This document shows positions 9,453 to 26,086 of a stretch of DNA of 64,000 nucleotides, in pieces. The notes under the pieces are model-generated. The model saw only the letters and a program-made list of their open reading frames with translations, was not told where the DNA came from and ran no database searches. The stretch is from Candidatus Omnitrophota bacterium (GTDB lineage Bacteria > Omnitrophota > Gorgyraeia > Zapsychrales > Aceulaceae). The stretch lies in assembly GCA_029564765.1 (NCBI GenBank), contig JAKQPK010000075.1, forward strand, positions 4,603 to 68,602. The letters run 5' to 3'. Positions within the stretch are counted from its first letter, which is position 1. Each line of letters starts with the position of its first letter. A program made the translations under genes and the position numbers.

Positions 9453-9927
9453 GTTGGCCATTTATCCAGGCACGTTTGACCCCATCACATATGGGCATAT
9501 CGATATTATCGCGAGAACTCGCCGTCTTTTTCCACAGGTTGTCGTTGCGGTCGCTCAAACATCCCGCAAGAATTTACTTTTTGATATTGATGAACGCGTA
9601 CGCATGGTCCGTCAGGCCGTCAAGGGCTTATCCGGGGTTCGCGTTGAAGCGTTCAACGGCCTCGTGGTAGATGTCGCGAAAAAATACGATACGAATATCC
9701 TGATCCGTGGATTGAGGATGGTATCGGACTTTGAGTATGAATTTCAGATGGCCTTAACTAATCGCCGTTTGGCTGGCAAGGTCGAGACTGTTTTCTTGAT
9801 GCCGTCCGAACAATATTCGTTTATTTCATCGACCTTGCTCAAAGAAGTCGCGCGTCTTGGGGCGGACATCTCAACGCTTGTGCCAAAGCATGTCGAGAAA
9901 AAGCTTAAGGCAAAGCTTGCATCATGA
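9442..9927 (+). CDS. coaD: Phosphopantetheine adenylyltransferase
   Basis: 'AIYPGTFDPITYGHIDII' is the nucleotidyltransferase H/T-x-G-H motif. Length 161 aa. Confidence 0.9.
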   Translation: MMSRLAIYPGTFDPITYGHIDIIARTRRLFPQVVVAVAQTSRKNLLFDIDERVRMVRQAVKGLSGVRVEAFNGLVVDVAKKYDTNILIRGLRMVSDFEYEFQMALTNRRLAGKVETVFLMPSEQYSFISSTLLKEVARLGADISTLVPKHVEKKLKAKLAS

Positions 9928-10340
9928 AATTTGATATTCGCAGTATTTCTTCGACAGGATGTGCTGTTGAAGGTTTCTTGAAACAAGAAGATTTTTGTGT
10001 TCGTATTCATGAGATCGAATGCCTTGCGCCTATTCAGCTTTCCGGCAGAATAGAAAAAACTTCAGCAATGGTCAGAGCGCAGATCAATGTAAAAACAGTC
10101 TTTCGTTATATATGTGGCCGCTGCCTAGAAACGTGTGATAAAGAGTTTTGTGAGCATCTTGATCTTCATTATCCTGTTGAGTCGCAAGAGAACTACATTG
10201 ATATCGGCGAAGATGTTCGCCAGGAGATCCTGCTGGGATTCCCGGACCGCGTCGTGTGTCAAGACCAATGCAAGGGCTTGTGTCCAAGGTGCGGCGTGAA
10301 TTTAAATCAGGAACAGTGCGGGTGCGGAAAGAATGAGTAA
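9924..10340 (+). CDS. yceD: DUF177 / YceD-family protein (large-subunit ribosomal accumulation protein), located upstream of rpmF
   Basis: Conserved position before rpmF-plsX. CxxC...CxxC pattern 'CGRCLE...CPRCGVNLN'. Confidence 0.7.
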   Translation: MKFDIRSISSTGCAVEGFLKQEDFCVRIHEIECLAPIQLSGRIEKTSAMVRAQINVKTVFRYICGRCLETCDKEFCEHLDLHYPVESQENYIDIGEDVRQEILLGFPDRVVCQDQCKGLCPRCGVNLNQEQCGCGKNE

Positions 10341-10492
10341 GGGGGTAAAGGATTAAAGGATTTCAGGGCTTAAGGTTTATTGGGTTGACTCAAAGAACTC
10401 AGCAAACCCTATAAATTTTGTGAATTCTTTATTCCTCTAACCCTATAACCTTTTAACCTTTTATCAATTTACTTTTAAAATAGGAGCCTAAT

Positions 10493-10690
10493 ATGCCATT
10501 ACCAAAAAGACAACATTCTAAGCAGCGTGGACGTAAGCGTCGCACGCATTGGAAGATCGCGATGCCGAATCTAAGCGTTTGCGGCCAGTGCGGTAAACAG
10601 GTTTTGCCGCATCGCGTTTGTCCTTTTTGCGGATCTTACAAAGGACAACAAGTTATTGTCATTAAGACAAAAGAGAAGAAAAAGAAATAG
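10493..10690 (+). CDS. rpmF: 50S ribosomal protein L32
   Basis: 'MPLPKRQHSKQRGRKRRTHWK...CGQCGK...CPFCG'. Confidence 0.9.
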   Translation: MPLPKRQHSKQRGRKRRTHWKIAMPNLSVCGQCGKQVLPHRVCPFCGSYKGQQVIVIKTKEKKKK

Positions 10691-10698
10691 GTCAAGAT

Positions 10699-10802
10699 TT
10701 AAAGTCAAAAATCAAAGCGATAGCACAAAAAATCATTGAGTTGGTGGAGTTCTTGCGATTGCTGAACTTTGAAATATTTTCTCGCTTAGATTTGACTTTT
10801 AA
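10699..10802. repeat. Second MITE-like element with 'ttaaagtcaaa'/'tttgactttta' terminal inverted repeats, between rpmF and plsX
   Basis: Imperfect 11-bp IR of the same motif family as 8712-8864. No ORF. Confidence 0.45.
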
Positions 10803-10821
10803 TTTTTAAACGGAGCTCAAT

Positions 10822-11808
10822 ATGAACATTATTGTCGACGCGATGGGCGGGGATCATGCTCCGCGAGAAATTGTCGATGGAGCGATCCAGGCGGTTAACG
10901 AATTCAACGTTAACATAACGTTTACGGGCGTTGAAGCCAAGATCCGAGCTGAGTTAGCCAAGTACGATTATCCGAAGGAAAAGATCAAGATCATCCATAC
11001 CGATGAAGTCGTGGATATGCACGATCCGGCTACCACCTCGATCCGCAAGAAGAAAAATTCTTCCATTTCTTTGGGTATCAATCTTCTGAAAGAATCCACA
11101 ACCTATAACGCGTTTATTAGTGCCGGCAACACGGGAGCGGTCGTGTGCGCGGCCACATTCTTGCTGGGAATGCTTCCGGGCGTGGAGCGTCCTGCTATTG
11201 GCCTTGTCATCCCAACCTTAAATAAATTTTCTTTCTTAATCGATGTGGGCGCCAATACAGACCCGAAGCCGGAGCATTTATTGCAGTCCGCGATCATGGC
11301 AAAGGTATACGCTCAAGAAGTCATGGGCATCAACGATCCGCGCATTGGTTTGCTGAATATTGGCGCCGAAGAAAGCAAGGGGACGGATTTCGTCAAAGAC
11401 GCGCATAAACTTTTTCTGGAGCGTTTGTCCAATTTTGCTGGCAATGTCGAAGCTAATGAGATTTTTGCGGGCCGCTGTGACTGTATCATTTGCGATGGCT
11501 ATGTCGGTAACGTAGTCATCAAGATCTCAGAAAGCCTGATGGAGTCCGCCTTAACGTTGATCCGGCGTGAGGTCAAAAAAAGTCCTATGTCTATGCTGGG
11601 AGCCATGCTCATGCGTGGATGCATGCGTGATATCAAGAAGCACGCGGATTATACCGAATACGGCGGCGCACCGCTTTTGGGTGTCAACGGCCTTGTGATG
11701 ATCAGTCATGGGCGCTCAAACGCGAAAGCTATTAAGAACGCGATCCGGGCGACGATCCACGAGATCGAAAACAATGTCATTGACCATATCATTCAAGAGG
11801 TTGTCTAA
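10822..11808 (+). CDS. plsX: Phosphate acyltransferase PlsX
   Basis: 'IVDAMGGDHAP', 'SAGNTGA', and the conserved yceD-rpmF-plsX-fabH-fabD operon context. Confidence 0.9.
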   Translation: MNIIVDAMGGDHAPREIVDGAIQAVNEFNVNITFTGVEAKIRAELAKYDYPKEKIKIIHTDEVVDMHDPATTSIRKKKNSSISLGINLLKESTTYNAFISAGNTGAVVCAATFLLGMLPGVERPAIGLVIPTLNKFSFLIDVGANTDPKPEHLLQSAIMAKVYAQEVMGINDPRIGLLNIGAEESKGTDFVKDAHKLFLERLSNFAGNVEANEIFAGRCDCIICDGYVGNVVIKISESLMESALTLIRREVKKSPMSMLGAMLMRGCMRDIKKHADYTEYGGAPLLGVNGLVMISHGRSNAKAIKNAIRATIHEIENNVIDHIIQEVV

Positions 11809-12788
11809 TGACGCCTGTCCAGATCACTGCTGTTGGCCATTATGTTCCTTCCCGCAAGTTGACCAATGCTGATCTTGAGAAGATAGTCGATACATCTGAT
11901 GAGTGGATCGTCACGCGCACAGGCATCAAAGAGCGCCGCATTGCCGGCGAGCACGAAAAAACAAGCCATTTAGCGATCGAGGCTGCCCGCCAAGTTTTAC
12001 ACAACGCCAAGATCGCCGCGAGCAAGATCGACCTGATTATCGTCGCGACAACGTCCCCAGACAGTAATTTTCCTTCTGTCGCATGCCTTGTTCAAAAAGC
12101 CTTGGGCGCAAGATCCGCGATTGCTTTTGATGTGTCAGCTGCTTGCACAGGATTTATTTACGCGATCTCAGTGGCGCATCAATTTTTATTGGCGAAAACA
12201 TACAAGAATGCTCTTGTGATCGCCGCGGACCGTTTGACGACCATGATCGACTGGCAAGATCGCAATACATGTGTTTTGTTCGGTGATGGGGCGGGGGCGT
12301 GCCTGCTGGAGTCCGGGGATAAAAAGGGGATCTTAGCAGAACATCTTGAAAGCTACGGTGAGTATGGTGAGCTGATGAAGATCATCGTTCCTGAAACACG
12401 GCACCCTTTAAAACCAAAGCATGCAAATGGAGTTTTACCTTATATTCAGATGCAAGGGCCTGAGCTATTTAAGATCGCGGTTAATTCGATGGCGGACTGC
12501 GTCGAGAAAGCCTTGGAAAAAGCCAAGATCACGATCAGCGAGGTGGCGTGCGTTGTGCCTCATCAGGCCAACGACCGTATCATCAGCGCGGTCGCGAAAA
12601 AGCTGGACATCCCTAAGGAGAAGTTTTTTATCAATATCGAGAAGTATGGCAATATGTCAGCAGCTTCAGCAGCGGTAGCGCTTTTTGAAGCAGTTGAGTT
12701 GGGGCGTATTCGCAAAGGCGATTACGCGGTCTTGGTCGCGTTCGGGGCAGGGCTTGTCGCTGGTGCGATCGTCATCAAATGGCAATAA
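11808..12788 (+). CDS. fabH: 3-oxoacyl-ACP synthase III
   Basis: 'GHYVPSRKLTNADLEKIVDTSDEWIVTRTGIKERR', active-site Cys 'AACTGF', 'HQANDRII'. Its ATG overlaps the plsX stop. Confidence 0.9.
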   Translation: MTPVQITAVGHYVPSRKLTNADLEKIVDTSDEWIVTRTGIKERRIAGEHEKTSHLAIEAARQVLHNAKIAASKIDLIIVATTSPDSNFPSVACLVQKALGARSAIAFDVSAACTGFIYAISVAHQFLLAKTYKNALVIAADRLTTMIDWQDRNTCVLFGDGAGACLLESGDKKGILAEHLESYGEYGELMKIIVPETRHPLKPKHANGVLPYIQMQGPELFKIAVNSMADCVEKALEKAKITISEVACVVPHQANDRIISAVAKKLDIPKEKFFINIEKYGNMSAASAAVALFEAVELGRIRKGDYAVLVAFGAGLVAGAIVIKWQ

Positions 12789-12801
12789 AGGAATATTGTT
12801 T

Positions 12802-13728
12802 ATGATAAATGTGGCATTGATTTTTCCAGGTCAGGGCGCTCAAAAGGTGGGCATGGGAAAGGAGTTGTACGATGCGATCCCAGCGGCCAAAGCTATTTTT
12901 GATTCTGCTCAGGCAACACTCGGCAATGACCTTCTTGATGTTATTTTTAATGGGCCCCAGGAAAAGCTGACACTTACATCCTACTCACAGCCGGCGATCG
13001 TTTCTTGCAGTATCGCAGGATTAAAGGCGCTTCAAGCGCATCCGAAATTTGGCGAGCTGAAGATCGCTTTTACGGCTGGACTTAGCTTGGGGGAATATTC
13101 GGCCTTGATCGCATCTGGAGCGCTCTCTTTTGAGGATGGTATTCGCTTGGTGCAAAAACGCGGCGCTTTTATGGATGAAGCCTGCAAGCTGCAACAAGGT
13201 GCCATGGCGGCCATTATCGGATTTCCTAAGGACAGGCTCAAAGAGATCTGCCGCGAAACCGGAGCGCAAGTCGCTAACTTTAATTCTCCAGAACAGATCG
13301 TCATTACAGGTCATGCTGACAAGGTCCAGGCTGCTGTTTCCGCGATCGAAAAAGAAAATCCAAAGAATATCGTTATGCTTGAAGTGGCCGGAGGATTTCA
13401 TTCAAGCCTGATGAAGTCTGCCGCGGAAAAGTTTTCTGCGGAGCTTTCAAAATTTAATTTGCAGACATTGAGCATCCCCCTCGTTGGCAACGTCAAAGGT
13501 GTGGCCGAAACAGATCCTGAAATCATCCGCCAAAACCTGCCTTTACAGATCACCTCATCTGTTCTCTGGGAAGATTCTGTCCGTTTTATGGCCGCGCAAG
13601 GTGTGAAGTATTTCATTGAGATCGGCCCTGGCAAGATCCTCAAAGGCCTTATTCGTCGTATCGATCCTACGTTAACTGTCTTTAACATTGAGAAGCCGCA
13701 GGATATAGAAACAGTATTTAGCATTTAG
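12802..13728 (+). CDS. fabD: Malonyl-CoA:ACP transacylase
   Basis: 'ALIFPGQGAQKVGMG', active-site 'GLSLGEYSAL'. The ATG at 12802 is chosen over the ORF-track's upstream extension at 12685, which overlaps fabH. Confidence 0.9.
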   Translation: MINVALIFPGQGAQKVGMGKELYDAIPAAKAIFDSAQATLGNDLLDVIFNGPQEKLTLTSYSQPAIVSCSIAGLKALQAHPKFGELKIAFTAGLSLGEYSALIASGALSFEDGIRLVQKRGAFMDEACKLQQGAMAAIIGFPKDRLKEICRETGAQVANFNSPEQIVITGHADKVQAAVSAIEKENPKNIVMLEVAGGFHSSLMKSAAEKFSAELSKFNLQTLSIPLVGNVKGVAETDPEIIRQNLPLQITSSVLWEDSVRFMAAQGVKYFIEIGPGKILKGLIRRIDPTLTVFNIEKPQDIETVFSI

Positions 13729-13877
13729 TCTTTAGTGTTTAGCTTTTGCCGACCTATCGAAATACTGTTTGAAGATACTAGATATTTTTCATTTTTCCCG
13801 CCAAAGATTTTCCATATTTTTAATGAATCACTGATATAAACTATGTATACTAATATATATTTATATATAAGGACGTT

Positions 13878-14312
13878 ATGCCTTGCCTTGGGACCAAAGA
13901 AATAGAAGCGATCCTGCCACAGAAATACCCATTTCTGCTCATTGATAGGGTTTTAGATTACAAAGAAGATGACTATCTTGTTGCTATTAAGAATATCACG
14001 GGTAACGAATGGAGTTCTGTTGACAGCGTCAGCCAGCTTGAATGTTGGCCGGAGATGTTGGCTGTAGAAGGAGCTTTGCAGGCTGCAATTATTTTGTATC
14101 ATAAAAGTAAGAATTTCCCCGGAGAGACTCCGGTATATTTTATTGGAAAAGTTATTTCTGAGTTTTATTGCTTACCTAAAATTGGTGATTCTTTAAATAT
14201 TGTAGTTTCCGCAGAAAAGCTAATGCGCATTGGTGGATATGCGCGTATCGATTTAAAGAATCAAAAAGAAAGAATTTCCAGCATCGAAATCTTTTTTAGC
14301 GTAAAGAGATGA
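13878..14312 (+). CDS. FabZ/FabA-like hotdog-fold 3-hydroxyacyl-ACP dehydratase. First gene of a low-GC coupled module
   Basis: 'LPQKYPFLLIDRVL' matches the FabZ N-terminal signature. 144 aa. Preceded by a ~150-bp AT-rich gap. Its stop overlaps the next start. Confidence 0.7.
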   Translation: MPCLGTKEIEAILPQKYPFLLIDRVLDYKEDDYLVAIKNITGNEWSSVDSVSQLECWPEMLAVEGALQAAIILYHKSKNFPGETPVYFIGKVISEFYCLPKIGDSLNIVVSAEKLMRIGGYARIDLKNQKERISSIEIFFSVKR

Positions 14313-15538
14313 TTAAACAAAAAAAAGACGAACGACGTGTCGTGGTCACAGGCTTAGGCGTTGTTTCGTCTATTGGTATTGGCTGGCAGGAATTCTGGAA
14401 AAACCTTCTCGCTGGAAAATCCGGTATCAGCAAGATCACTTCATTTGACACATCCTCCTACGACCGTCACTATGGCGGTGAAGTCAAAGATTTTAATCCC
14501 TATAAATTTATTGATAAGCGAAAAGCGGACCGTATGGGCCGGGCTTCACAGATGGCTATTGCTAGCTGTAATCTTGCATTATCTGACGCAGATTTCTCTT
14601 TTGCAAGAGTTGGCAGAAGAAAGGTGGGGGTTTTTATCGGTACCACAACAGGAGAAATTGCACGCCTAGAGCAATACTACAAGACTTGGCATAGCACGAA
14701 CAAAAAAATACCAGTTCCTATGAACCTAATTACTTTTCCAACCTATTGCCTAAGCTCACATGTTAGTAGATATTTTCGGCTTTCTGGACCAAGCGTGGTT
14801 TTTTCTAATGCATGCGCTGCCGGGAATTATGCCATTGGTTACGCGTATGATTTGATAAAGAATGGGCGTATTGAACTTGCTATCGCTGGCGGAGTTGATG
14901 GCATTTCAAATATTGTGTTTACTGGCTTTAGTCGTTTATTAGCTATAGCTCCAGAAAAATGTCAACCTTTTGATAAGGATAGAAAAGGGATGATTCCTGG
15001 GGAGGGGTCTGGAATTCTTTTTCTGGAGAATTTAGATAGCGCATTAAAGAGAAAAGCTAGAATCTATGCTGAAATTTATGGATATGGTCTTTCTTGCGAT
15101 GGCCATCATATGACAAGCCCTTCTCCTGACGGAGTAGTTCTTTCAATAAAGAAATGTTTAGATGCTTCAGGAGTCTGTTGCGATGCTGTAGATTATGTCA
15201 GCGCTCATGGGACCGGTACAATAGAGAATGATCGATTGGAATGCCAAGCTATAAAAACTATTTTTGGGGCACGGCGGAGAAAAATTCCCGTATCATCTAT
15301 TAAGTCTATGATTGGTCATTGCATGGGAGCATCTTCTGCGATAGAGGCGATTACATGTTGTCTTGCGATAAAAGATCAAAAGATTCCACCAACAATTGGT
15401 TTTAACGAAAAAGATCCTGATTGTGATATTGATTGCGTTCCAAATAAATCCCGAGAAGCAAAAGTAGGCGTTGTTTTGAACAATTCGCTAGCATTTGGTG
15501 GTAATAACGCTAGCTTGCTATTAGGAAAAAGAAAATGA
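14309..15538 (+). CDS. Beta-ketoacyl-ACP synthase (KAS I/II-like condensing enzyme)
   Basis: Catalytic triad context 'SNACAAGNYAIGYA', 'SAHGTGT', 'GHCMGASS'. 409 aa. Overlaps its neighbours by 4 nt. Confidence 0.8.
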   Translation: MIKQKKDERRVVVTGLGVVSSIGIGWQEFWKNLLAGKSGISKITSFDTSSYDRHYGGEVKDFNPYKFIDKRKADRMGRASQMAIASCNLALSDADFSFARVGRRKVGVFIGTTTGEIARLEQYYKTWHSTNKKIPVPMNLITFPTYCLSSHVSRYFRLSGPSVVFSNACAAGNYAIGYAYDLIKNGRIELAIAGGVDGISNIVFTGFSRLLAIAPEKCQPFDKDRKGMIPGEGSGILFLENLDSALKRKARIYAEIYGYGLSCDGHHMTSPSPDGVVLSIKKCLDASGVCCDAVDYVSAHGTGTIENDRLECQAIKTIFGARRRKIPVSSIKSMIGHCMGASSAIEAITCCLAIKDQKIPPTIGFNEKDPDCDIDCVPNKSREAKVGVVLNNSLAFGGNNASLLLGKRK

Positions 15539-16950
15539 ATGATGAAAGATATCAGGTAATCATTATTGGGGCTGGAATTGGTGGCCTAGTTTCTGGATGT
15601 CTTCTTGCGCTTGCAAAGAAGAAGGTTTTAATTGTCGAAAAGAATGATGTTCCAGGAGGATACTGCACATCGTTTAAGCAATTTGGTCTGCATTTCGATA
15701 CTTGTGCCCATTCATTGGGAGATTTATCGAAGCAAGGCAAGTTGTTTGCGATACTAAATAAGATTGGAGTCTTAGAAAAGGTAAAGAGAGTCCGGTACGA
15801 TCCAGGAGACATCATTGTCACAGAAGATTTTGAAGTGTGTTTTAATAATTCTTTGGATAAGACAATAAGAAATCTTTCAAGCATTTTTCCAAAAGAAAAA
15901 GAAGCAATTTCTGCATTCTTTAAGAATATTGTATGTCGACAAGATTTTGTTCAGGCAATGCAGCTTCATAAACAAACTTTTAGCATGCTTCTTGATGATT
16001 ATTTTGTTGATTTGCGACTTAAGAAAATTTTAGGTCTTTTTCCGCTTGGAAATCTCGGAACTCCGGCAAACCACGTCTCAGCGTTTATTGCCGTGAAACA
16101 TTTCAAGCAATTCATTGTTGATGGAGGTTATTATTTATCTAGGGGGATGGATGATTTACCAAGAGCTTTGATGCGGCGCTTCACAGCTCTTGGCGGAAAG
16201 CTTAGCTTTGGATCAGAGGTTGCCTCGGTGAAATGCAGAAATAATACAGCTGTAGGGATTATTTTACGAAATGGTCGTGAATTTTCTGCAGATTTTATTA
16301 TTTCTGCTTGCGACCTAAAGAGTGTTTTCATGAGAATGTTAACTGATTTGAAAACAAGGAAGCGTGCAAAAAATATTATTCGAGAAATGCAGCCATCCCT
16401 TTCTTTATTTGTTGCGCATGTTGTATTGAAAAAGAAGCTATGCAATTCTTATTCTCCTGGGACAAATGTCTGGCGTCTTCGTAATTATGAATATGATCGA
16501 GTGCATAAACGGCAAATTAATTATTCTGATATGTCTGTAGGGTGGATAATGCTTAGAATTGGTATCAGAAAAAAGACTGTAACGCTATTTACGAACGCTC
16601 CTTATCGGGGTAGTTCGTTTTGGAGGAGGAATAGGGTTGATTTCTTTAGCAGAATCCTAAAATTAGCCTCAGATGTAGTCCCTGGAATAGATAACAATGT
16701 AAAATCAGTTCAGCTTTTAACTCCTTTTGGGCTAAACAAGATGACTGGAAATTATAATGGTGCAGGATATGGATGGGCCAGCACTCCGAATCAGTCTTTT
16801 GTAGCTGACCTCTTAAGCGACGGAGTCGCTAAGAACCTTTTTTTATCTGGTCATTGGGGTTCAGTTGCCCAGGGAATCCCTGGAGTGGCTATTGCAGGAG
16901 AGCGTGTTTCAAGAATAATTTTAGCTAGAATGAAAAATGTCAAGATCTAA
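15535..16950 (+). CDS. FAD/NAD(P)-dependent oxidoreductase of the phytoene-desaturase/amine-oxidase (CrtI-like) family
   Basis: Rossmann motif 'VIIIGAGIGGLVSGCLLA...VLIVEKNDVPGG'. About 470 aa, typical CrtI/RetSat-family length. Confidence 0.7.
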   Translation: MNDERYQVIIIGAGIGGLVSGCLLALAKKKVLIVEKNDVPGGYCTSFKQFGLHFDTCAHSLGDLSKQGKLFAILNKIGVLEKVKRVRYDPGDIIVTEDFEVCFNNSLDKTIRNLSSIFPKEKEAISAFFKNIVCRQDFVQAMQLHKQTFSMLLDDYFVDLRLKKILGLFPLGNLGTPANHVSAFIAVKHFKQFIVDGGYYLSRGMDDLPRALMRRFTALGGKLSFGSEVASVKCRNNTAVGIILRNGREFSADFIISACDLKSVFMRMLTDLKTRKRAKNIIREMQPSLSLFVAHVVLKKKLCNSYSPGTNVWRLRNYEYDRVHKRQINYSDMSVGWIMLRIGIRKKTVTLFTNAPYRGSSFWRRNRVDFFSRILKLASDVVPGIDNNVKSVQLLTPFGLNKMTGNYNGAGYGWASTPNQSFVADLLSDGVAKNLFLSGHWGSVAQGIPGVAIAGERVSRIILARMKNVKI

Positions 16951-18235
16951 TAATCGAAAAAAAGTTGTGGTAACTGGCTTAGGACCAATTACATCAGTTG
17001 GAATTGGAGCTGATGCATTATGGCAATCGCTTTTTGAGGGAAAAACGGACATTGTTGAACATAAGCATATTTTGTCAGGGGAGCTAATTGATACCTTTCC
17101 TTTGCATATGATTCAATCGTTTAATCTCGATGATTTTAAGATTCCTGAGAATGGGCTGAAATCTATACGAGACTGGAAAAAAGACGCTATAGATAGAGAG
17201 TTGAGTCTTTTTCTTGCTTCAATTAAGGTTGCTCTTGACGATAGCAAAATAAAAAATTCTTATCGTAAGGATATCGGTTTTGTTTTTACTCAAGAAATGC
17301 CAGGGGTAGAAGATTTTTTTGAAAAGGTCATCATAAAGACAATTAATTTTAGTCGTACAGGTAAAAAAATGACACACAAAAATGTTAGCGAATACTTGTA
17401 TGAAGCATGCGAGGCCCAGGGATACGATCTCCAGACTTTTATGTATATATATTTTGCCCTAAAGTGTTTTGGTTGCCACGGATATTCTTTATTTATCAAC
17501 AATGCATGTGCATCAGGATCCTATGCGATTGAAGAAGCTGCTCGGATTATTCGTTCTGGCCATCAGAAAATTATAATTGTTTCCGGGGGAGACTCTCCGA
17601 TAAAATCTTTTAAATATAATTGGTTTAAAAAGCGTGGCCTGTACTCTAGCGATGGTCTTGTAAGACCATTTTGTCGTAACTCTAATGGAATTGTTTTTGG
17701 TGAAGGCGTTTCATCTCTGGTATTGGAAGATTTTGATCATGCAAAAAAGCGTGAAGCTAAGATTTACGCGGAATATCTTGGAGGGGGTTTTTCACAGGAA
17801 GCATGGAAGGTGACATTGCCAAATATCACCGAGAATTTCTATTTGTCAGCCTTTCAGAAAGGACTTAAGGAGTCGAAAGTTGATATTTCGGAAATCGATT
17901 TTGTTAATGCCCATGGGGTAGGCATTAAAATTACTGACAATTATGAGGCTCGTACGATTAAGAAAGTTTTTAGCAGGTTAAAGAATAAGCCTTTAGTTAC
18001 CGCGTTTAAACCTTACATTGGTCATAATTTAGGTGGGAGCAGCTTGATCGAGAGCGTGATATCTATACTTTGTTTAAAAAACAATTGTATTCTGCCAACT
18101 TTAAATACGGAAGATTATGATGAAAATCTTGGGATAAATCTTGCAAGAGAGAAAGTTGAGAAAGATTTACGCATTTTTGCAAAGATGTCGTGTGGTTTTG
18201 CTGGGTTTAATTCGGTTATTTTCTTTAGAAAGTAA
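16937..18235 (+). CDS. Second beta-ketoacyl-ACP synthase-like protein (divergent KAS)
   Basis: 'NNACASGSYAIEEAARII' (Cys retained), 'NAHGVG', 'GHNLGGSS'. Overlaps the upstream gene by 14 nt. Confidence 0.7.
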   Translation: MSRSNNRKKVVVTGLGPITSVGIGADALWQSLFEGKTDIVEHKHILSGELIDTFPLHMIQSFNLDDFKIPENGLKSIRDWKKDAIDRELSLFLASIKVALDDSKIKNSYRKDIGFVFTQEMPGVEDFFEKVIIKTINFSRTGKKMTHKNVSEYLYEACEAQGYDLQTFMYIYFALKCFGCHGYSLFINNACASGSYAIEEAARIIRSGHQKIIIVSGGDSPIKSFKYNWFKKRGLYSSDGLVRPFCRNSNGIVFGEGVSSLVLEDFDHAKKREAKIYAEYLGGGFSQEAWKVTLPNITENFYLSAFQKGLKESKVDISEIDFVNAHGVGIKITDNYEARTIKKVFSRLKNKPLVTAFKPYIGHNLGGSSLIESVISILCLKNNCILPTLNTEDYDENLGINLAREKVEKDLRIFAKMSCGFAGFNSVIFFRK

Positions 18236-18241
18236 TTATCC

Positions 18242-20434
18242 ATGGCTCAATCATTTAGTTTATTGCGAATACTTTTTATCTTATCTGGCCTTACGCTGTC
18301 CCTAACCTGTTTCGCGCTTCTTTTTATAATTTTAAAATTTGGAAGAACCAAATTAACAAAAGTTTGGGCTTGTTTTAATTTATCAGTCTTTGTTTGGGGA
18401 TTAGGTGTTTCGATGATTGGGTTTGCGAAAAATGATAGCGAAGCTTGGTTAGCTTGGAAGATTGGTCATGCGGGAGCGATTTTTATTGCTGGAACGTTCT
18501 TTCACGTCGTCAGCGTCCTGACTGATAAGGGGTTGCGGCGCTTTATCGCAGTTGTTTATAGCTATTCTTGTGTTTTCTTGCTTTTGAATATCCTAGATCA
18601 ACTTAATATCAGTATCATTGAAAAATTTGATGGAATATATTTTATATTTCCAGAAAACTTTTTGTACCCATTCTTAATTACAGCTTGGGTGGTAATCGTT
18701 TTATTTGCATTCATTATTTTAATACAATCTTTGCGGACTGTCAGCCAAAGATTATACAATCAGCTTCGGTATTTTCTGATTGGGACGACAGTCGGATTTC
18801 TTGGCGGTCTTAGCAATTTTCTCCCAATGTTTAATGTAAACATTTATCCTTTAGGAAATTTTTTGATATCATTTTATTGTTGTTTCTGCAGCTATGCAAT
18901 CTTGAGGCATCGCCTTATGGATGTCAGCATTGCGATAACTCGGACGGGGATTTTTGTTTTAGTCTATTCGCTCGTTCTTGGCATCCCTTTTGCCATCGCT
19001 TTCGGACTGAAAGATTATTTATTTTCTATTCTTGGAAATATTTGGTGGATTATTCCTTTATTTGCCTCAACCATGCTGGGCACTGCTGGGCCATATCTTT
19101 ATTTCTTTATCCAGCGCAAGGCAGAAGAAAAGTTATTAGCCGACCAAAAGCGCTACCAATCGACCTTAAAGCAAGCGTCGGCAGGCATGACGCGTATCAA
19201 GGACCTAAAAAAGCTTTTAAATTTGATCGTCTATATTCTCTCTAGAACGGTTAATCTAACGCATGCATCTCTGTATCTCTACAATCCAAAAAGTCGTGAC
19301 TATACCCTTGAGGCTGTGAGAGGCGAGAAGCTTTCGAAGAAGAATTATTACATTAGCCGTCGCTGTGCGTTGATTGATTATCTGGAAAAAGCAAAGCTGC
19401 CTATCGTAGCTGAAGAGATCAAGCAGCAAAGTCAAGATTACAACAATGAAAACTTGAAAGAAGTCTACGCGCAGCTTAAGGAAATTGGCGCGGAAGTTGC
19501 TGTTCCGATCCTTACGGAAAAGCGCTTGTTGGCAATAGGTGTTCTCGGTAAAAAAAATACAGGATCGATGTATACACCGGATGACTTGACAGTTTTCTCA
19601 ATTCTGGCAAGCCAGGTCGCGCTTGCTATCGAAAACGCTCAGTTCTACGAAGAGTCCAAACAGACCCAGGAACAACTTTTCCAGGCGGAAAAAATGGCGA
19701 CGATCGGCACGATGGCTGACGGCCTGTCACATCAGATCAATAATCGTCTACATACGCTTGGCTTTATTGCCGGAGACGCTTTGGACACCATCAACCTGAG
19801 CAAGGATGTTCAGGATCCTTCAAGGTTCCAGTCGATCTTGGCCGAAATATCCAAAGCACTTGTAAAGATCCAGGAAAATGTCCGTCAAGGCGGCGAGATC
19901 GTTCAAGGATTATTGCGCTATACGCGAAAAGGCCAGGAAGGCTTTGGGGAGGTGGTCTTTGACAAGCTTGTCGATGAAGTTGTTGAGATGGCGCAATTCA
20001 AGATCAAAAAAGAATATGTGGCGATCGTTAAGGACTATCCTCAAGATCTGCCTGGGATCCATGGGAATTTTACGCAGCTGCAAGAAGTCTTTTTTAATAT
20101 CATTGATAACGCGTATGACGCGATCATGCAAAAGAAACATGAGATCGCGGATGAAAATTTTAGCGGCAAGATCAAGATCTCAACTCGCCAGACCGAGAAA
20201 TTTTTGGAGGTCAATGTTCTCGATAACGGCATGGGCGTTAAAGAAGATGACCAGACAAAGCTCTTTACACCATTTTTCACGACAAAAGTGTCAAGTCGTA
20301 AAGGTACGGGATTGGGGCTTTATGTGATCAAGAAGATCGTTGAAGACAACCATCAGGGAGAAGTCTTCATTTCCTCCGAACATAAAGTAGGGACATTGTT
20401 CATTGTCAGGCTACCGATAGGAAAGAAGGGATAA
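18242..20434 (+). CDS. Sensor histidine kinase with a polytopic (7TM-type) N-terminal sensor, a GAF-like region, and HisKA/HATPase
   Basis: About seven N-terminal TM helices. H-box 'DGLSHQINNRLHTL', N-box 'FFNIIDNAYDA', G-box 'GTGLGLYVIKKIV'. Confidence 0.8.
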   Translation: MAQSFSLLRILFILSGLTLSLTCFALLFIILKFGRTKLTKVWACFNLSVFVWGLGVSMIGFAKNDSEAWLAWKIGHAGAIFIAGTFFHVVSVLTDKGLRRFIAVVYSYSCVFLLLNILDQLNISIIEKFDGIYFIFPENFLYPFLITAWVVIVLFAFIILIQSLRTVSQRLYNQLRYFLIGTTVGFLGGLSNFLPMFNVNIYPLGNFLISFYCCFCSYAILRHRLMDVSIAITRTGIFVLVYSLVLGIPFAIAFGLKDYLFSILGNIWWIIPLFASTMLGTAGPYLYFFIQRKAEEKLLADQKRYQSTLKQASAGMTRIKDLKKLLNLIVYILSRTVNLTHASLYLYNPKSRDYTLEAVRGEKLSKKNYYISRRCALIDYLEKAKLPIVAEEIKQQSQDYNNENLKEVYAQLKEIGAEVAVPILTEKRLLAIGVLGKKNTGSMYTPDDLTVFSILASQVALAIENAQFYEESKQTQEQLFQAEKMATIGTMADGLSHQINNRLHTLGFIAGDALDTINLSKDVQDPSRFQSILAEISKALVKIQENVRQGGEIVQGLLRYTRKGQEGFGEVVFDKLVDEVVEMAQFKIKKEYVAIVKDYPQDLPGIHGNFTQLQEVFFNIIDNAYDAIMQKKHEIADENFSGKIKISTRQTEKFLEVNVLDNGMGVKEDDQTKLFTPFFTTKVSSRKGTGLGLYVIKKIVEDNHQGEVFISSEHKVGTLFIVRLPIGKKG

Positions 20435-20459
20435 AGGGGCAAAGGACTAAAGGGTTAAA

Positions 20460-20852
20460 GTGATTGAAAAAAGAAAATTGAAAACATATAAAGATCTTAT
20501 TGCTTGGCAGAAGTCTTACAGTTTGTGCTTAGAAATATATCGGGCAACGAAGATATTCCCGCAATCTGAACAATATGGCCTGACCGCACAAATGAAGCGA
20601 AGCGCCCTTTCCGTTCCGTCAAATATTGCTGAAGGGTATGTGCGGCACGGAACGCGAGACTATATTCGTTTTCTTTATATCGCTTACGCTTCGCTTGCAG
20701 AACTAGAAACACAATTGCTTCTTGCAAAAGATTTGGGATATATTAAATCTGATGACTTTAAGCAGATCATTGGTCTGCAAAACGAGGTTCAGAGGGTTAT
20801 GCGCGGGCTAATCGAGTCGCTTAAATCAAGATCTTCACAAAATGCCCTGTAA
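20460..20852 (+). CDS. Four-helix-bundle protein (23S rRNA intervening-sequence protein family)
   Basis: 'YKDLIAWQKSYSLCLEIYRATKIFPQSEQYGLTAQMKRSALSVPSNIAEGY' is the canonical family signature. Flanked by the 11-bp IR 'agggataaagg'/'cctttatccct'. Confidence 0.85.
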   Translation: MIEKRKLKTYKDLIAWQKSYSLCLEIYRATKIFPQSEQYGLTAQMKRSALSVPSNIAEGYVRHGTRDYIRFLYIAYASLAELETQLLLAKDLGYIKSDDFKQIIGLQNEVQRVMRGLIESLKSRSSQNAL

Positions 20853-20899
20853 TCCTATGATCCTTTATCCCTGTAATCCTATTAATATAAGGACTGCCT

Positions 20900-21259
20900 A
20901 TGCCAAAACTACTTATTGTTGATGATGAAACGGATATCACGGAGTTCGCGAAGCATTTCTTCGAGAAGCGGGGGATCGAGGTAATTACAGCTTCAGGAGG
21001 TCAGGAAGCACTGGATCTGATAAGCTTAAGCAATCCTGATCTCACGCTTTTGGATGTGCGCATGGGAGAGGTTACAGGTGTTGATGTCTTGCGTAAACTT
21101 CGCGAATCAGGTAATATGATGAAAGTTGTCATGGTAACTGGCGTAGAGGATCCCGCTATTATTAAGCAAGCACAAGATCTGGGCATAAGCGGTTTTATAC
21201 ATAAACCCTTAGCCTTGGATGAATTAGAGCGGGTTGTGATGAAGGAATTAGAAGGATAA
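20900..21259 (+). CDS. Stand-alone response-regulator receiver (CheY-like)
   Basis: 'LLIVDDE...D', 'LLDVRMGEVTGVDVL', 'VVMVTG'. 119 aa. Confidence 0.85.
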   Translation: MPKLLIVDDETDITEFAKHFFEKRGIEVITASGGQEALDLISLSNPDLTLLDVRMGEVTGVDVLRKLRESGNMMKVVMVTGVEDPAIIKQAQDLGISGFIHKPLALDELERVVMKELEG

Positions 21260-21333
21260 AAAGTATTTAGTCGATAGTCGTTAGTATTTAGCGCGCTGAC
21301 ACCAGATACTATATACCAACAACTGACACAGCT

Positions 21334-22539
21334 ATGTCACTCAATTACAAAAAAGAACTCGAACGTGCAAGCCGTGTTATGATCCGGATCCATGATCCGA
21401 GCATCTTGATACGTTTGATCATTCGCTTGATCGTGCGCAAGGTTGACGTTAAGCACGCTGGCGTTTTGTTGTTTGACGCTAACCGCGATTGCTACGTTCT
21501 TACTCTCTCAGGCGGGGAGAGCGGGACCCGTATCCCGCAGGGGTTCGCGAAATTTGTTAAAGAAAACCCATTGATCAAATTCTTCGTTGATAAAGAATAT
21601 CAATCGCTTATAAGGCGCCATGGGGCTTTGACCATCGAAGAACTTAACCGCATGATCTGGAGCGAAAATGTCTTGCCGCAGAATGAACAGCATAAAGATT
21701 TCTTGCACAAGATCGCTCAGCAGATGGAGATGTTCAATGTAGCGGTCTGTATCCCAGCGTATTTTCGTGAGCATCTTGTAGCGCTTTTGCTTCTTGGCGA
21801 AAAGACAAACGGACATGTTTATCAGCAGGAAGAGTTTGATTTTCTAGCGGCGCTGTCTTCGGATGTTGCCATGGCCATTCAGAACGCGCGGCTTATTGAG
21901 GATTTGCGCAAAGAAGTTGAGAAGAATAAAGCGCTTTTTATCAACACCGCTCTTTCACTTGCTTCGGCCATAGAGGCTAAAGACCGTTACACACGTGGCC
22001 ATACAGAGCGTGTTACAAAATACGCGTTAGCGATTGCCGATGAGCTTGTACACAACCGCGCCTTTCCTCTTTCGAAAAATTTCTCTGAGGATCTGTACAT
22101 TGCGTCTTTGTTGCATGATGTAGGGAAAATAGGCGTTCCTGAGAGCATCTTGAGCAAAGAAACAGGCCTTACGGACCAGGAATTCCAGCAGATACGTCTA
22201 CATCCGCTAAGAGGAGCCGATATTTTAAAAGCTATTCCGGAATTTGAAGAGTGCCTTAAGGGTGTTAAATATCACCACGAGCGCTATGATGGCCGAGGCT
22301 ATCCGGAGGGCTTAAAAGGCGAAGAGATCCCGCTCGTTGCTGCCATTGTCGCTGTCGCGGATAGCTATGACGCGATGACCTCTGATCGAACTTACCGCAA
22401 AGCCATGTCCAAGGACGCTGCTATAAGCGAGATCGAGAAAAATATAGGTATTCAATTTCATCCGGTGGTGGCAAAGGCGTTTTTGGAGGTGTTGAGGAAA
22501 AGCGAAAAAGAGTTAATAAAAGTTACAAATGGTTACTAG
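21334..22539 (+). CDS. HD-GYP domain phosphodiesterase with N-terminal GAF-like region
   Basis: 'HTERVTKYALAIADEL', 'HDVGKIGVPESIL', 'HHERYDGRGYPEGLKGEEIP'. Confidence 0.85.
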   Translation: MSLNYKKELERASRVMIRIHDPSILIRLIIRLIVRKVDVKHAGVLLFDANRDCYVLTLSGGESGTRIPQGFAKFVKENPLIKFFVDKEYQSLIRRHGALTIEELNRMIWSENVLPQNEQHKDFLHKIAQQMEMFNVAVCIPAYFREHLVALLLLGEKTNGHVYQQEEFDFLAALSSDVAMAIQNARLIEDLRKEVEKNKALFINTALSLASAIEAKDRYTRGHTERVTKYALAIADELVHNRAFPLSKNFSEDLYIASLLHDVGKIGVPESILSKETGLTDQEFQQIRLHPLRGADILKAIPEFEECLKGVKYHHERYDGRGYPEGLKGEEIPLVAAIVAVADSYDAMTSDRTYRKAMSKDAAISEIEKNIGIQFHPVVAKAFLEVLRKSEKELIKVTNGY

Positions 22540-22661
22540 GGGTTACGCTTAAAGCGCGTCTTCCATCTTCCTTCACGGTCTAATTTATATAATGCGTCAA
22601 TAAACCTGTCCATTTGAAAGCATGCGGTTTTGATGAGCGTTGTTATTTTCTTATGGTCTTC

Positions 22662-22934
22662 TTACGGGATCAGGTTATCTTCAAGGCAATCATCCATATC
22701 GCCTCCTAGTTCTTCCAGCGAACCTCTGCTGATTTTGATGGAATGTGCGAATTCACCAACGCTATCTTTTGCATAGCCCTCGCGGATATTCTGCTTTGCG
22801 CTTCTGGCCGCATCGCATATTTGACTTACCAGTCGCAGTCGCGACTTTTGGAAGGCCCCTGTCATTTTATTGATAAGACGCCTGATCTCGCAAACATTCT
22901 TGTAAAATTCCAGATTTTCGTAGGCTCGACCCAT
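22662..22934 (-). CDS. Four-helix-bundle protein (IVS-protein family), short member. The start is uncertain because the ORF extends to 23018 and overlaps the kinase gene's end
   Basis: 'NIREGYAKDSVGEFAHSIKISRGSLEELGGDMD' family-type C-terminal half. Confidence 0.6.
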   Translation of the reverse strand: MGRAYENLEFYKNVCEIRRLINKMTGAFQKSRLRLVSQICDAARSAKQNIREGYAKDSVGEFAHSIKISRGSLEELGGDMDDCLEDNLIP

Positions 22935-25717: not shown

Positions 25718-26086
25718 TTAATCAACAAGGTTAAGTTTTTTGATAAGGTTACGAATCATCTTAGATTCAAACTGAATTTTCTCAATCAAGCGAGTTTTAA
25801 ACTGGTTTTCGATATATTTTAAGTCATAACAAATTTCAAGTTGCGTTTCAAGCTCGGAGCAGGACCCAAGCGCGTGAAAAAGGAATTGTCGATATTCTTT
25901 ATTATGATAACGGCTAAATCCTTCTGCAATATTTGAAGGTATTGAGATTGCGGATCTGCGCATTTGAGAAACAAGAGAAAAGAGTTCTTCTTTTGGAAAT
26001 ATTTTTGTTCTTTCGTATATTTCTAAGACAATATCCTTCCCCAGGCTCCAGATTTTTAGTTCCCTAAAGCTTTTTATCTTATCCAT
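25718..26086 (-). CDS. Four-helix-bundle protein (IVS-protein family)
   Basis: 'IKSFRELKIWSLGKDIVLEIYERTKIFPKEELFSLVSQMRRSAISIPSNIAEGFSR'. Flanked by the perfect 15-bp IR 'gtatttagtatctag'/'ctagatactaaatac'. Confidence 0.85.
   Translation of the reverse strand: MDKIKSFRELKIWSLGKDIVLEIYERTKIFPKEELFSLVSQMRRSAISIPSNIAEGFSRYHNKEYRQFLFHALGSCSELETQLEICYDLKYIENQFKTRLIEKIQFESKMIRNLIKKLNLVD

What the first reader, a model, noticed from the sequence alone, without database searches (positions are those of the whole stretch)
13730..18235. Low-GC, translationally coupled FabZ-like / KAS / CrtI-like FAD-oxidoreductase / KAS module in the position where fabG-acpP-fabF normally sit
The canonical yceD-rpmF-plsX-fabH-fabD operon ends at 13728. 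Where fabG-acpP-fabF usually follow, there is a ~150-bp AT-rich gap and then four genes whose starts and stops overlap by 4–14 nt: a hotdog dehydratase, a KAS, a phytoene-desaturase-family FAD enzyme, and a second divergent KAS. There is no ACP, ketoreductase or enoyl reductase. The nucleotide composition of this stretch is visibly lower in GC than the flanking fab genes, which is consistent with horizontal acquisition. A condensing enzyme, a dehydratase and a CrtI-like desaturase/saturase, with no KR or ER, suggests an oxygen-independent route to unsaturated or polyunsaturated acyl chains, or to a polyene- or ladderane-like lipid. It does not look like ordinary saturated fatty-acid synthesis. 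The kinase gene that follows starts 6 nt downstream and could be co-regulated.
Basis: partly seen in the sequence, partly recalled or inferred. Interest (0 to 1): 0.72.

Follow-up and report, generated by a model that had tools for sequence, protein, structure and literature searches.

The report
Anammox-like lipid module plus kinase
A four-gene offshoot of fatty-acid synthesis in an uncultured wastewater bacterium (probably Omnitrophota) is a cut-down relative of the still unexplained 'ladderane' gene cluster of anammox bacteria; it is transcriptionally tied to a membrane sensor kinase and differs as one block between close relatives, which suggests it makes a specialised lipid cue rather than ordinary membrane fat.

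Summary
Four overlapping genes (13878-18235) follow yceD-rpmF-plsX-fabH-fabD after a 149-bp AT-rich gap, and GC is 0.384 against 0.458 for the genome. The module is not a new invention. It is a reduced version of the anammox 'Cluster I' system (amxACP/amxFabZ/amxFabF2/amxFabFmut/PDH). Homologous clusters occur in most of 80 Omnitrophota and Nitrospirota loci. The hotdog protein is amxFabZ-type but lacks the catalytic His. KAS-A is amxFabF2-like. KAS-B is an Omnitrophota-specific ketosynthase with an intact triad. The flavoprotein is not the organism's carotenoid desaturase, because a true crtB-crtI pair lies elsewhere. The partners missing from the module (CLF-like KAS, KR, FabZ, amxACP-like ACP) and fabG-acpP-fabF lie on other contigs. 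A sensor histidine kinase follows the flavoprotein gene in 55 of 61 loci. Low GC is shared by syntenic relatives, so it does not by itself show foreign origin. However, a block from inside KAS-A to the kinase's 7TM domain (14563-18892) has been exchanged. Best reading: the module makes a lineage-variable lipid product that is coupled to the kinase/HD-GYP circuit. The chemistry is unknown. I rate it a new variant of a known kind.

The parts
9924..13728 (+). Upstream housekeeping operon: yceD-like (9924-10340), rpmF (10493-10690), plsX (10822-11808), fabH (11808-12788), fabD (about 12811-13728). It supplies malonyl-ACP.
   Evidence: fabH and fabD score above the NCBIfam cut-offs.
13729..13877 (.). 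AT-rich intergenic gap of 149 bp (GC 0.268). An AAGGA Shine-Dalgarno-like motif lies 4 nt before the ATG at 13878.
   Evidence: The consensus promoter/terminator scan found no more sites than shuffles.
13878..14312 (+). DH*: a 144-aa amxFabZ-type hotdog protein. The catalytic His of the GHFP motif is replaced (Ser). The Glu and the amxFabZ tunnel Ile are kept.
   Evidence: Its best PDB hits are the anammox amxFabZ structures 8ayd/8ayi/7qv0. The His is lost in all 9 fabD-linked relatives, while the other cluster DHs keep GHFP. FabZ models score 62 against a cut-off of 113.
14309..15538 (+). KAS-A: a 409-aa ketosynthase with intact Cys-His-His, of the amxFabF2/Iga11 type. It is mosaic: aa 1-75 resemble the sister genome, and the rest is divergent.
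   Evidence: It scores 428 bits to 9s5h_B, 354 to Iga11 (6kxd), about 300 to canonical FabF and 290 to its own FabF. Triad. Mosaic.
14563..18892 (+). Hypervariable, exchanged block. It spans the KAS-A substrate-pocket and dimer region onward, the FAD enzyme, KAS-B and the 7TM sensor domain of the kinase.
   Evidence: Nucleotide alignment to both same-genus genomes stops at 14562 and, for G001, resumes at 18893. The nearest relatives of the inner segments are distant Omnitrophota, while the flanks are nearest to the same genus. The AU test rejects KAS-A of G000 and G002 as sisters, p=0.007. The junction is bridged in an independent run.
15535..16950 (+). FAD enzyme: a 471-aa flavoprotein of the amine-oxidase/CrtI superfamily, in a distinct cluster-associated clade (PDH-like). 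The GxGxxG motif is intact.
   Evidence: crtI_fam scores 103 against a cut-off of 238. The closest homologue among 5.8 billion proteins is 43% identical. Homologues sit in KS/CLF/DH/ACP clusters.
16937..18235 (+). KAS-B: a 432-aa divergent ketosynthase with intact Cys-His-His, belonging to an Omnitrophota-specific clade.
   Evidence: Only 39% identical to the same-genus copy.
18242..20434 (+). Sensor histidine kinase with 7TM (aa about 20-228), GAF (321-464), an H-box and HATPase. It starts 6 nt after KAS-B.
   Evidence: An HK follows the FAD gene in 55 of 61 loci, with a median gap of 5 nt.
20460..20852 (+). Four-helix-bundle '23S rRNA IVP' gene (PF05635). It is an insert whose position varies between relatives.
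20900..21259 (+). Stand-alone receiver (CheY-like) response regulator with no DNA-binding domain.
   Evidence: Syntenic in G001, G004, G005 and L027.
21334..22539 (+). GAF-HD-GYP protein with the HD and HHExxDGxGYP motifs present. Its predicted output is c-di-GMP phosphodiesterase activity.
   Evidence: Its GAF domain is paralogous to the kinase's GAF domain.

Best explanation
Window 13878-18235 is the biosynthetic half of one operon (13878-22539) that this Omnitrophota family carries directly behind plsX-fabH-fabD. It is a reduced and dispersed version of the anammox 'Cluster I' type of non-canonical type II FAS/PKS system.

Shown:
- KAS-A is an amxFabF2/Iga11-type ketosynthase with an intact triad.
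- The hotdog protein is amxFabZ-type but has lost its catalytic His.
- KAS-B is an extra, active-looking ketosynthase.
- The flavoprotein belongs to the clade that accompanies such clusters, and it is not the cell's CrtI.
- The partners absent in cis lie elsewhere in the genome: an amxFabFmut-like CLF, a FabG-like KR and a FabZ on C30, and an amxACP-like ACP on C61.
- A sensor kinase is almost always the next gene. Here it feeds a receiver and an HD-GYP protein, with no DNA-binding output.
- The stretch from the KAS-A pocket region through the tailoring genes to the kinase's 7TM domain behaves as one exchangeable block. The tailoring slot differs between close relatives: FAD enzyme, methyltransferase, thioester reductase, KAS-B.

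Inferred:
- KAS-A, probably paired with the CLF-like protein, extends a chain on the dedicated ACP using malonyl-ACP from FabD.
- KR and DH process the chain, and no ER acts on it.
- The flavoprotein oxidises, reduces or isomerises a C-C bond of the ACP-bound chain, and KAS-B extends the result.
- The product is a lineage-specific, probably short or medium-chain unsaturated acyl compound, not bulk fatty acid.
- The product, or the local membrane state it creates, is the cue read by the co-encoded 7TM-GAF kinase, which lowers c-di-GMP through the HD-GYP protein. This would be a self-made lipid cue with a matched receptor.
For: - Homology to Cluster I proteins: DH* to amxFabZ; KAS-A to 9s5h_B at 428 bits; the C30 KAS to 9s5h_C at 385 bits, with its triad lost as F-N-E; the C61 ACP to amxACP 7qv0_D/9s5i_E/7auf. 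Literature on Cluster I: PMC2649909, PMC4790861, PMC10139942, bioRxiv 10.64898/2026.05.19.726425.
- Cluster make-up in 80 loci is [MT]-CLF-DH-KS-ACP-[KAS-B]-FAD-HK.
- An HK directly follows the FAD gene in 55 of 61 loci, with two unrelated sensor architectures: 7TM-GAF in Omnitrophota and PAS hybrid in Nitrospirota.
- The output proteins are REC-only and GAF-HD-GYP.
- The tailoring slot varies among relatives.
- Block exchange has boundaries at 14562 and 18893, and KAS-B and the HK 7TM domain share the same nearest relative, L068.
- The core partner genes are well conserved; the CLF-like KAS is 94% identical in G002.
- A true crtB-crtI pair lies elsewhere in the genome.
Against: - No product, substrate or activity is known for any member of this cluster family, including in anammox bacteria. 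The flavoprotein's reaction is pure inference.
- Pairing of KAS-A with the C30 CLF-like protein and use of the C61 ACP are inferred from homology only.
- The neighbouring control kinase (22984-24600, minus strand) also has a hypervariable, swapped 7TM domain. Sensor-domain turnover is therefore not specific to this operon.
- Linkage to plsX-fabH in two phyla and the high expression of the anammox homologues (as reported in PMC10139942 and the 2026 preprint) fit a structural membrane lipid equally well.
- Nearest-neighbour identities inside the block are only 42-45%, so the donor lineage is unsampled.
Confidence: 0.4

Rival explanations
1. Structural specialised membrane lipid. The module makes an unsaturated, polyenoic or otherwise modified acyl chain that enters phospholipids through PlsX, as is assumed for anammox Cluster I. 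The kinase only adjusts or monitors this remodelling.
For: The module sits directly after plsX-fabH-fabD here and in L025, L030 and G001-G005. It is convergent with fabH-plsX in many Nitrospirota loci. It is homologous to a cluster that is highly expressed in anammox bacteria and thought to make membrane lipids. No FA desaturase and no FabA were recognised in the genome.
Against: There is no DNA-binding regulator in the operon. Gene content differs between species of one genus, and the FAD gene is missing in G001 and G004. A thioester-reductase release enzyme occurs in sister clusters. The biosynthetic genes and the sensor domain are exchanged as one block.
Confidence: 0.3
2. Housekeeping oxygen-independent unsaturated fatty-acid synthesis, as a functional replacement of FabA/FabB. 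The flavoprotein would act as a desaturase or isomerase (or as the missing enoyl reductase), and the KAS proteins would extend the cis-enoyl intermediate.
For: No FabI, FabK, FabV or membrane desaturase was recognised in a 98%-complete genome. The gene set (hotdog protein, KAS, flavoenzyme) resembles the FabA/FabB and FabX logic.
Against: The flavoprotein is absent from same-genus genomes at 94-96% completeness. It is only 30-43% identical to its nearest homologues. The hotdog protein lacks the catalytic His. An essential pathway would not vary in content between congeners.
Confidence: 0.1
3. Ladderane-like or polyene pigment synthesis in the strict sense: the same product class as in anammox bacteria, or as aryl polyenes.
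For: Four protein types are homologous to Cluster I. The KS is close to the polyene-forming Iga11. There is no ER.
Against: No B12-radical-SAM gene is in or near the module; the seven B12-binding proteins lie elsewhere. No aryl starter or ligase genes are present. The dehydratase in the module is inactive-looking. The organism is not an anammox bacterium.
Confidence: 0.07
4. Recently acquired foreign island, or decaying fabZ/fabF paralogues without a specific role.
For: GC is low and sequence divergence is high.
Against: Synteny and the GC dip are shared across the genus and family. All ORFs are intact, with conserved catalytic triads and FAD motifs. The cluster family is conserved in two phyla.
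Confidence: 0.05

Closest known systems
Anammox 'Cluster I' (Kuenenia kuste3603-3608: amxACP, amxFabZ, amxFabF2, amxFabFmut, phytoene-dehydrogenase homologue, B12 radical-SAM)
   Same: The same protein types are each other's best characterised relatives: DH* and the C30 FabZ to amxFabZ, KAS-A to the chain taken as amxFabF2, the C30 KAS to the triad-less chain taken as amxFabFmut, and the C61 ACP to amxACP. A CrtI-superfamily flavoprotein sits beside the KS. There is no ER. The function is unknown in both systems.
   Different: Here the set is split over three loci. The in-module hotdog protein lacks the catalytic His. There is a third KS class (KAS-B). No B12-rSAM gene is linked; Nitrospirota versions carry a SAM methyltransferase instead. 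A sensor kinase is co-operonic. The host is not an anammox bacterium, which contradicts the statement that the cluster occurs only in ladderane producers (PMC10139942). Orthology of the flavoprotein to kuste3607 was not tested.
Highly reducing type II PKS / aryl-polyene systems (e.g. ishigamide Iga10-16; Iga11 KS structure 6kxd)
   Same: Iga11 is the second-best structural-database relative of KAS-A (354 bits). The logic is KS plus a Cys-less partner plus KR plus DH, with no ER.
   Different: There is no starter-unit ligase, no aryl starter and no product-export genes. The KR, DH, CLF and ACP are not clustered with the KS. A flavoprotein and a second active KS are present.
DSF/Rpf signalling (RpfF synthase acting on FAS intermediates, RpfC sensor kinase, RpfG HD-GYP)
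   Same: An enzyme set that taps FAS II sits next to a membrane sensor kinase whose output is an HD-GYP c-di-GMP phosphodiesterase.
   Different: No crotonase-family RpfF is present. The receiver and HD-GYP are separate proteins, and both the kinase and the HD-GYP protein carry GAF domains. The signal role here is inferred only.
Pherotype loci agrBDCA and comQXPA
   Same: A variable block covers the signal-making genes plus the membrane sensor part of the kinase. It is flanked by a conserved kinase core and regulator, and it is discordant with the species tree.
   Different: The supposed cue would be a lipid rather than a peptide. The neighbouring unrelated kinase shows similar sensor-domain turnover, so the pattern is less specific.
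FabA/FabB and FabX anaerobic unsaturated fatty-acid routes
   Same: A hotdog protein plus a dedicated KAS, and in the FabX route a flavoenzyme, branch off FAS II.
   Different: The hotdog protein lacks the catalytic His. The flavoprotein belongs to a different superfamily. The genes are not conserved among congeners.

Membership tests
Anammox Cluster I-type system | amxFabF2-type KS with a Cys-His-His triad | tested here: met
   KAS-A scores 428 bits to 9s5h_B against about 300 to canonical FabF, and its triad is C-H-H. That 9s5h/9s5i is the amxFabF heterodimer is inferred from the ACP chain in 9s5i and from the preprint's description.
Anammox Cluster I-type system | Triad-less FabF partner (amxFabFmut/CLF-like) encoded beside the KS | tested here: not met
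   None is in the window module, and KAS-B has C-H-H. A homologue does exist in trans at G000:C30:52269-53507, with triad F-N-E and best PDB hit 9s5h_C at 385 bits.
Anammox Cluster I-type system | Dedicated amxACP in the cluster | tested here: not met
   There is no ACP in the window. An orphan amxACP-like ACP lies at G000:C61:176074-176343, with best PDB hits 7qv0_D, 9s5i_E and 7auf.
Anammox Cluster I-type system | amxFabZ: catalytic His/Glu pair plus a bulky tunnel residue (Ile) in place of Gly | tested here: not met
   The Ile and the Glu are present, but the catalytic His is replaced by Ser. The feature is as defined in PMC10139942.
Anammox Cluster I-type system | CrtI-superfamily 'PDH' flavoprotein in the cluster | tested here: inconclusive
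   A flavoprotein of the same Pfam family (PF01593) is present and adjacent. Direct orthology to kuste3607 could not be tested because no anammox sequence was in reach.
Anammox Cluster I-type system | Cobalamin-dependent radical-SAM enzyme in the cluster | tested here: not met
   None lies in 13878-22539. The seven B12-binding-domain ORFs of the genome are on other contigs.
Housekeeping FAS II FabZ/FabF | Score above the NCBIfam equivalog cut-offs | tested here: not met
   DH* scores 62 against 113. KAS-A scores 415.8 and KAS-B 217 against 493.75 for TIGR03150 (KAS-A does pass the broader subfamily model NF005589, 401 against 387). The real FabF (632 bits) lies with acpP and fabG on C69.
CrtI phytoene desaturase | crtI_fam score above cut-off and linkage to crtB | tested here: not met
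   P0003 scores 103 against 238. A genuine CrtI (400 bits) lies next to a phytoene-synthase homologue and a lycopene-cyclase-domain gene at C30:292.5-296.2 kb. The anammox homologues also failed to make lycopene (PMC4790861).
FabA/FabB-type anaerobic UFA module | Catalytic His in the hotdog dehydratase/isomerase | tested here: not met
   The His is absent.
DSF/Rpf-like lipid signalling | Sensor kinase plus HD-GYP output next to the synthase | tested here: met
   The kinase, REC and GAF-HD-GYP (HHERYDGRGYP motif) are present downstream and syntenic in relatives.
DSF/Rpf-like lipid signalling | Crotonase-family RpfF synthase; diffusible fatty-acid product | tested here: not met
   There is no crotonase-family protein in the operon. 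The product cannot be tested with these tools.

The most novel reading that the evidence does not exclude
The operon is a lipid-based self-signalling unit with 'pherotype'-like diversification. The ketosynthase pocket, the tailoring enzymes (flavoprotein, KAS-B, methyltransferase, thioester reductase) and the 7TM sensor domain are exchanged together, so each lineage makes and senses its own FAS-derived cue and answers through c-di-GMP. By extension, the core of the anammox 'ladderane' cluster would be a widespread signal- or specialised-lipid machine that anammox bacteria repurposed.
Probability: 0.25. Interest if true: 0.85.

Novelty: new variant of a known kind. Interest (0 to 1): 0.6.

Why it matters
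The function of the anammox Cluster I proteins, and especially of the CrtI-like flavoprotein, has been open since 2009, and the cluster has been described as exclusive to ladderane producers. This analysis shows that homologues of the ACP, FabZ, FabF2 and FabFmut proteins are widespread in Omnitrophota and Nitrospirota, always alongside a CrtI-superfamily flavoprotein whose orthology to the anammox one was not tested. Those clusters lack the radical-SAM gene, almost always have a sensor kinase as the next gene, and in one family have a swappable tailoring slot. That narrows what could be ladderane-specific to the rSAM step. It also offers simpler natural variants for reconstitution, and it raises a testable link between a FAS side-branch and c-di-GMP signalling in a phylum with almost no experimental biology.

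Tried and rejected
- The consensus promoter/terminator scan of 13500-22800 found no more sites than shuffles, so nothing can be said about a promoter in the AT-rich gap.
- Sequencing runs: no RNA holder is listed. Two runs labelled RNA-Seq (X4, X5) hold only small contigs and may be DNA, so they give no evidence on expression.
- The FabV models gave no hit in the control genomes, so the absence of FabV is not shown.
- The idea that hypervariability of the kinase's 7TM domain is specific to this operon was rejected, because the neighbouring control kinase shows the same pattern.
- The idea that low GC marks a recent foreign island was rejected, because relatives share the dip.
- The idea that KAS-B is the CLF-like partner was rejected. 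It keeps C-H-H and forms its own clade, and CLF-like genes co-occur with it in fuller clusters.
- The 'X' genes of relatives first looked like unknowns or degenerate KAS. Pfam shows they are methyltransferases or NAD_binding_4 thioester reductases.
- Literature searches found nothing on the Omnitrophota or Nitrospirota versions of the cluster.
- No structure prediction or complex prediction was run. KS/KS or hotdog/hotdog pairs would pass by likeness to solved dimers and would not discriminate between paralogous partners.
- Orthology of the flavoprotein to kuste3607 could not be tested, because no anammox genome was reachable by name.

Full report
**Observation.** The ORF map matches the finding: hotdog gene 13878-14312, KAS-A 14309-15538, flavoprotein 15535-16950, KAS-B 16937-18235 and kinase 18242-20434. 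The overlaps are 4, 4 and 14 nt, and the gap to the kinase is 6 nt. Upstream lie a yceD-like gene, rpmF, plsX, fabH and fabD. The 149-bp spacer has GC 0.268. The module has GC 0.384, against 0.48-0.50 for the fab genes and 0.458 for the 1.86-Mb, 98%-complete genome. Only 0.66% of 4.5-kb genome windows are as low. All four ORFs are intact. Both KAS proteins keep Cys-His-His, and the flavoprotein keeps its dinucleotide-binding motif and the invariant residues of its family. An independent activated-sludge run carries the sequence without differences.

**What the proteins are.**
- All four score below the equivalog cut-offs of FabZ, FabF and CrtI.
- Against solved structures, the hotdog protein is nearest to the anammox-specific FabZ (8ayd, 8ayi, 7qv0). 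The catalytic His of the GHFP motif is replaced by Ser, while the Glu and the amxFabZ-typical tunnel Ile are kept.
- KAS-A scores 428 bits to chain B of 9s5h/9s5i, 354 bits to the polyene ketosynthase Iga11, and about 300 bits to canonical FabF. I take 9s5h/9s5i to be the amxFabF2/amxFabFmut heterodimer of the 2026 preprint. That identification is an inference from its ACP chain and from the preprint's own remark that Iga11 is amxFabF2's nearest structure.
- KAS-B is equidistant from all of these and belongs to Omnitrophota-specific clusters.
- The flavoprotein is only weakly like CrtI/CrtD. Its closest homologue among 5.8 billion proteins is 43% identical.
- The genome has a genuine crtI (400 bits) next to a phytoene-synthase homologue and a lycopene-cyclase-domain gene on another contig. 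The flavoprotein is therefore not the carotenoid desaturase.

**The rest of the system lies elsewhere in the genome.**
- fabG-acpP-fabF are on contig C69.
- Contig C30 carries, after the rib genes, a KAS without a catalytic triad (F-N-E) whose best structural relative is chain C of 9s5h (385 bits). A FabG-like reductase and a FabZ follow it.
- An orphan ACP on C61 is nearest to amxACP.
- Homologues of every FAS-like Cluster I protein, together with a PDH-like flavoprotein of the same Pfam family, are thus present but dispersed. No B12-radical-SAM gene is linked.
- The CLF-like gene is 94% identical in the sister genome, so this partner is well conserved.

**Comparative context.**
- Eighty loci encoding relatives of the flavoprotein were fetched. 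Almost all come from Omnitrophota and Nitrospirota/Thermodesulfovibrionales MAGs.
- The usual architecture is [SAM methyltransferase]-CLF-like KAS-DH (His intact)-KAS-A-ACP-[KAS-B]-flavoprotein-histidine kinase.
- Of 61 loci with enough downstream sequence, the next gene is a kinase in 55, with a median gap of 5 nt. In three more a kinase follows after one intervening gene.
- The kinases are of two unrelated sensor types, 7TM-GAF and PAS hybrid.
- This contradicts the published statement that the cluster occurs exclusively in ladderane producers. It extends Rattray's 2009 observation of synteny with Desulfotalea.

**The window's own family.** Same-genus (G001-G003) and same-family (G004, G005) genomes, and also L025, L027 and L030, share the layout plsX-fabH-fabD-DH*-KAS-A-[slot]-7TM-GAF kinase-REC-GAF-HD-GYP.
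- All their DH* proteins lack the His.
- The slot differs between genomes:
  - here, L025 and L030: flavoprotein plus KAS-B
  - G001: methyltransferase plus KAS-B
  - G002 and G004: an NAD_binding_4 thioester reductase
  - G005: flavoprotein plus thioester reductase
  - L027: flavoprotein plus methyltransferase
  - one further contig: a Shikimate_DH-like protein
- All relatives show the same GC dip over these genes. Low GC is therefore a long-standing property of the cassette and not proof of foreign origin.

**Evidence for an exchanged block.**
- FabD is 90% identical between this genome and G002, but KAS-A is only 62% identical.
- Along KAS-A, identity to G002 is 98% for aa 13-72 and falls to 25% for aa 103-192, where the relatives share 45-61% with one another.
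- Nucleotide alignments to both G002 and G001 stop at window position 14562. The alignment to G001 resumes at 18893, inside the kinase at the end of its 7TM domain.
- In a KAS-A tree, G001-G005 form a supported clade (100/98) that excludes this genome. An AU test rejects the FabD-based sister pair, p=0.007.
- Segment by segment, the flanks are nearest to the same genus. KAS-A 100-200, the flavoprotein, KAS-B and the kinase's 7TM domain are nearest to distant Omnitrophota. KAS-B and the 7TM domain share the same nearest locus, L068.
- A contig from an independent study bridges the 14562 junction, so this is not a binning chimera.
- Caveat: the adjacent, unrelated 7TM kinase also has a swapped sensor domain.

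**Interpretation.**
- Shown: family membership, the loss of the catalytic His, the partners encoded in trans, the kinase linkage, the variable slot and the exchanged block.
- Inferred: a KS/CLF-type elongation on the dedicated ACP fed by FabD; KR and DH processing without an ER; a redox or isomerase step by the flavoprotein; a further extension by KAS-B; and a lineage-specific product.
- The operon's only output proteins are a receiver and an HD-GYP phosphodiesterase, and the biosynthetic genes and the sensor domain vary together. I therefore favour a self-made lipid cue read by the kinase (confidence about 0.4) over a purely structural membrane lipid (about 0.3).
- Housekeeping unsaturated fatty-acid synthesis, true ladderane or polyene synthesis, and a recent foreign island are less likely, for the reasons given under the rival explanations.

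**Verdict.** It is a new variant of a known but functionally unsolved system, not a new kind. The HGT argument from GC does not hold as stated.

Noticed in passing
whole genome G000 (searched by family): No recognisable enoyl-ACP reductase was found in a 98%-complete genome. None of the five SDRs looks like FabI, the FabK/NMO hits are PyrD and an IMPDH-like protein, and the FabV search had no working control. How this lineage reduces enoyl-ACP is unclear.
   Followed up: partly
G000:C61:176074-180206 (L106): The orphan amxACP-like ACP lies divergently next to an acyl-CoA dehydrogenase and an EtfB/EtfA-ferredoxin fusion. This could be an acyl-ACP dehydrogenase or reductase system.
   Followed up: no
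G000:C18:31145-38575 (L107): A second KS plus a triad-less KAS (R-D-N), a small ACP, a cyclase (PF04199), a polyketide cyclase/SRPBCC protein, an MFS transporter and an SDR lie together. This is a type II PKS-like cluster in a 1.86-Mb genome.
   Followed up: partly
G000:C30:292483-296247 (L140): A carotenoid-type locus: a lycopene-cyclase-domain protein, a phytoene/presqualene-synthase homologue and a genuine CrtI-family desaturase.
   Followed up: partly
window 20460-20852, 25718-26086; L124, L125, L127, L139: Small '23S rRNA intervening sequence'/four-helix-bundle genes (PF05635) sit at different places in the same operon in different relatives. They lie between fabH and fabD in G001, G002 and G004, and between the kinase and the receiver here. 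This suggests mobile or recombination-associated inserts.
   Followed up: no
window 22984-24600 (-): A second HisKA_7TM kinase lies convergent to the operon. Its 7TM domain is 15-21% identical to the same-genus and same-family copies compared (G001, G004, G005) and is nearest to a distant genome (L027), while its kinase core is nearest to G001. Sensor-domain swapping appears to be general in this lineage.
   Followed up: partly
window 29713-37572 (+): A very large ORF of 2619 aa. It was not examined.
   Followed up: no
G000 contigs C24, C20, C61, C2, C30, C72, C17: Seven ORFs carry a B12-binding domain, six of them about 485-525 aa and one 807 aa (probably class B radical-SAM enzymes). None is linked to the module.
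   Followed up: no
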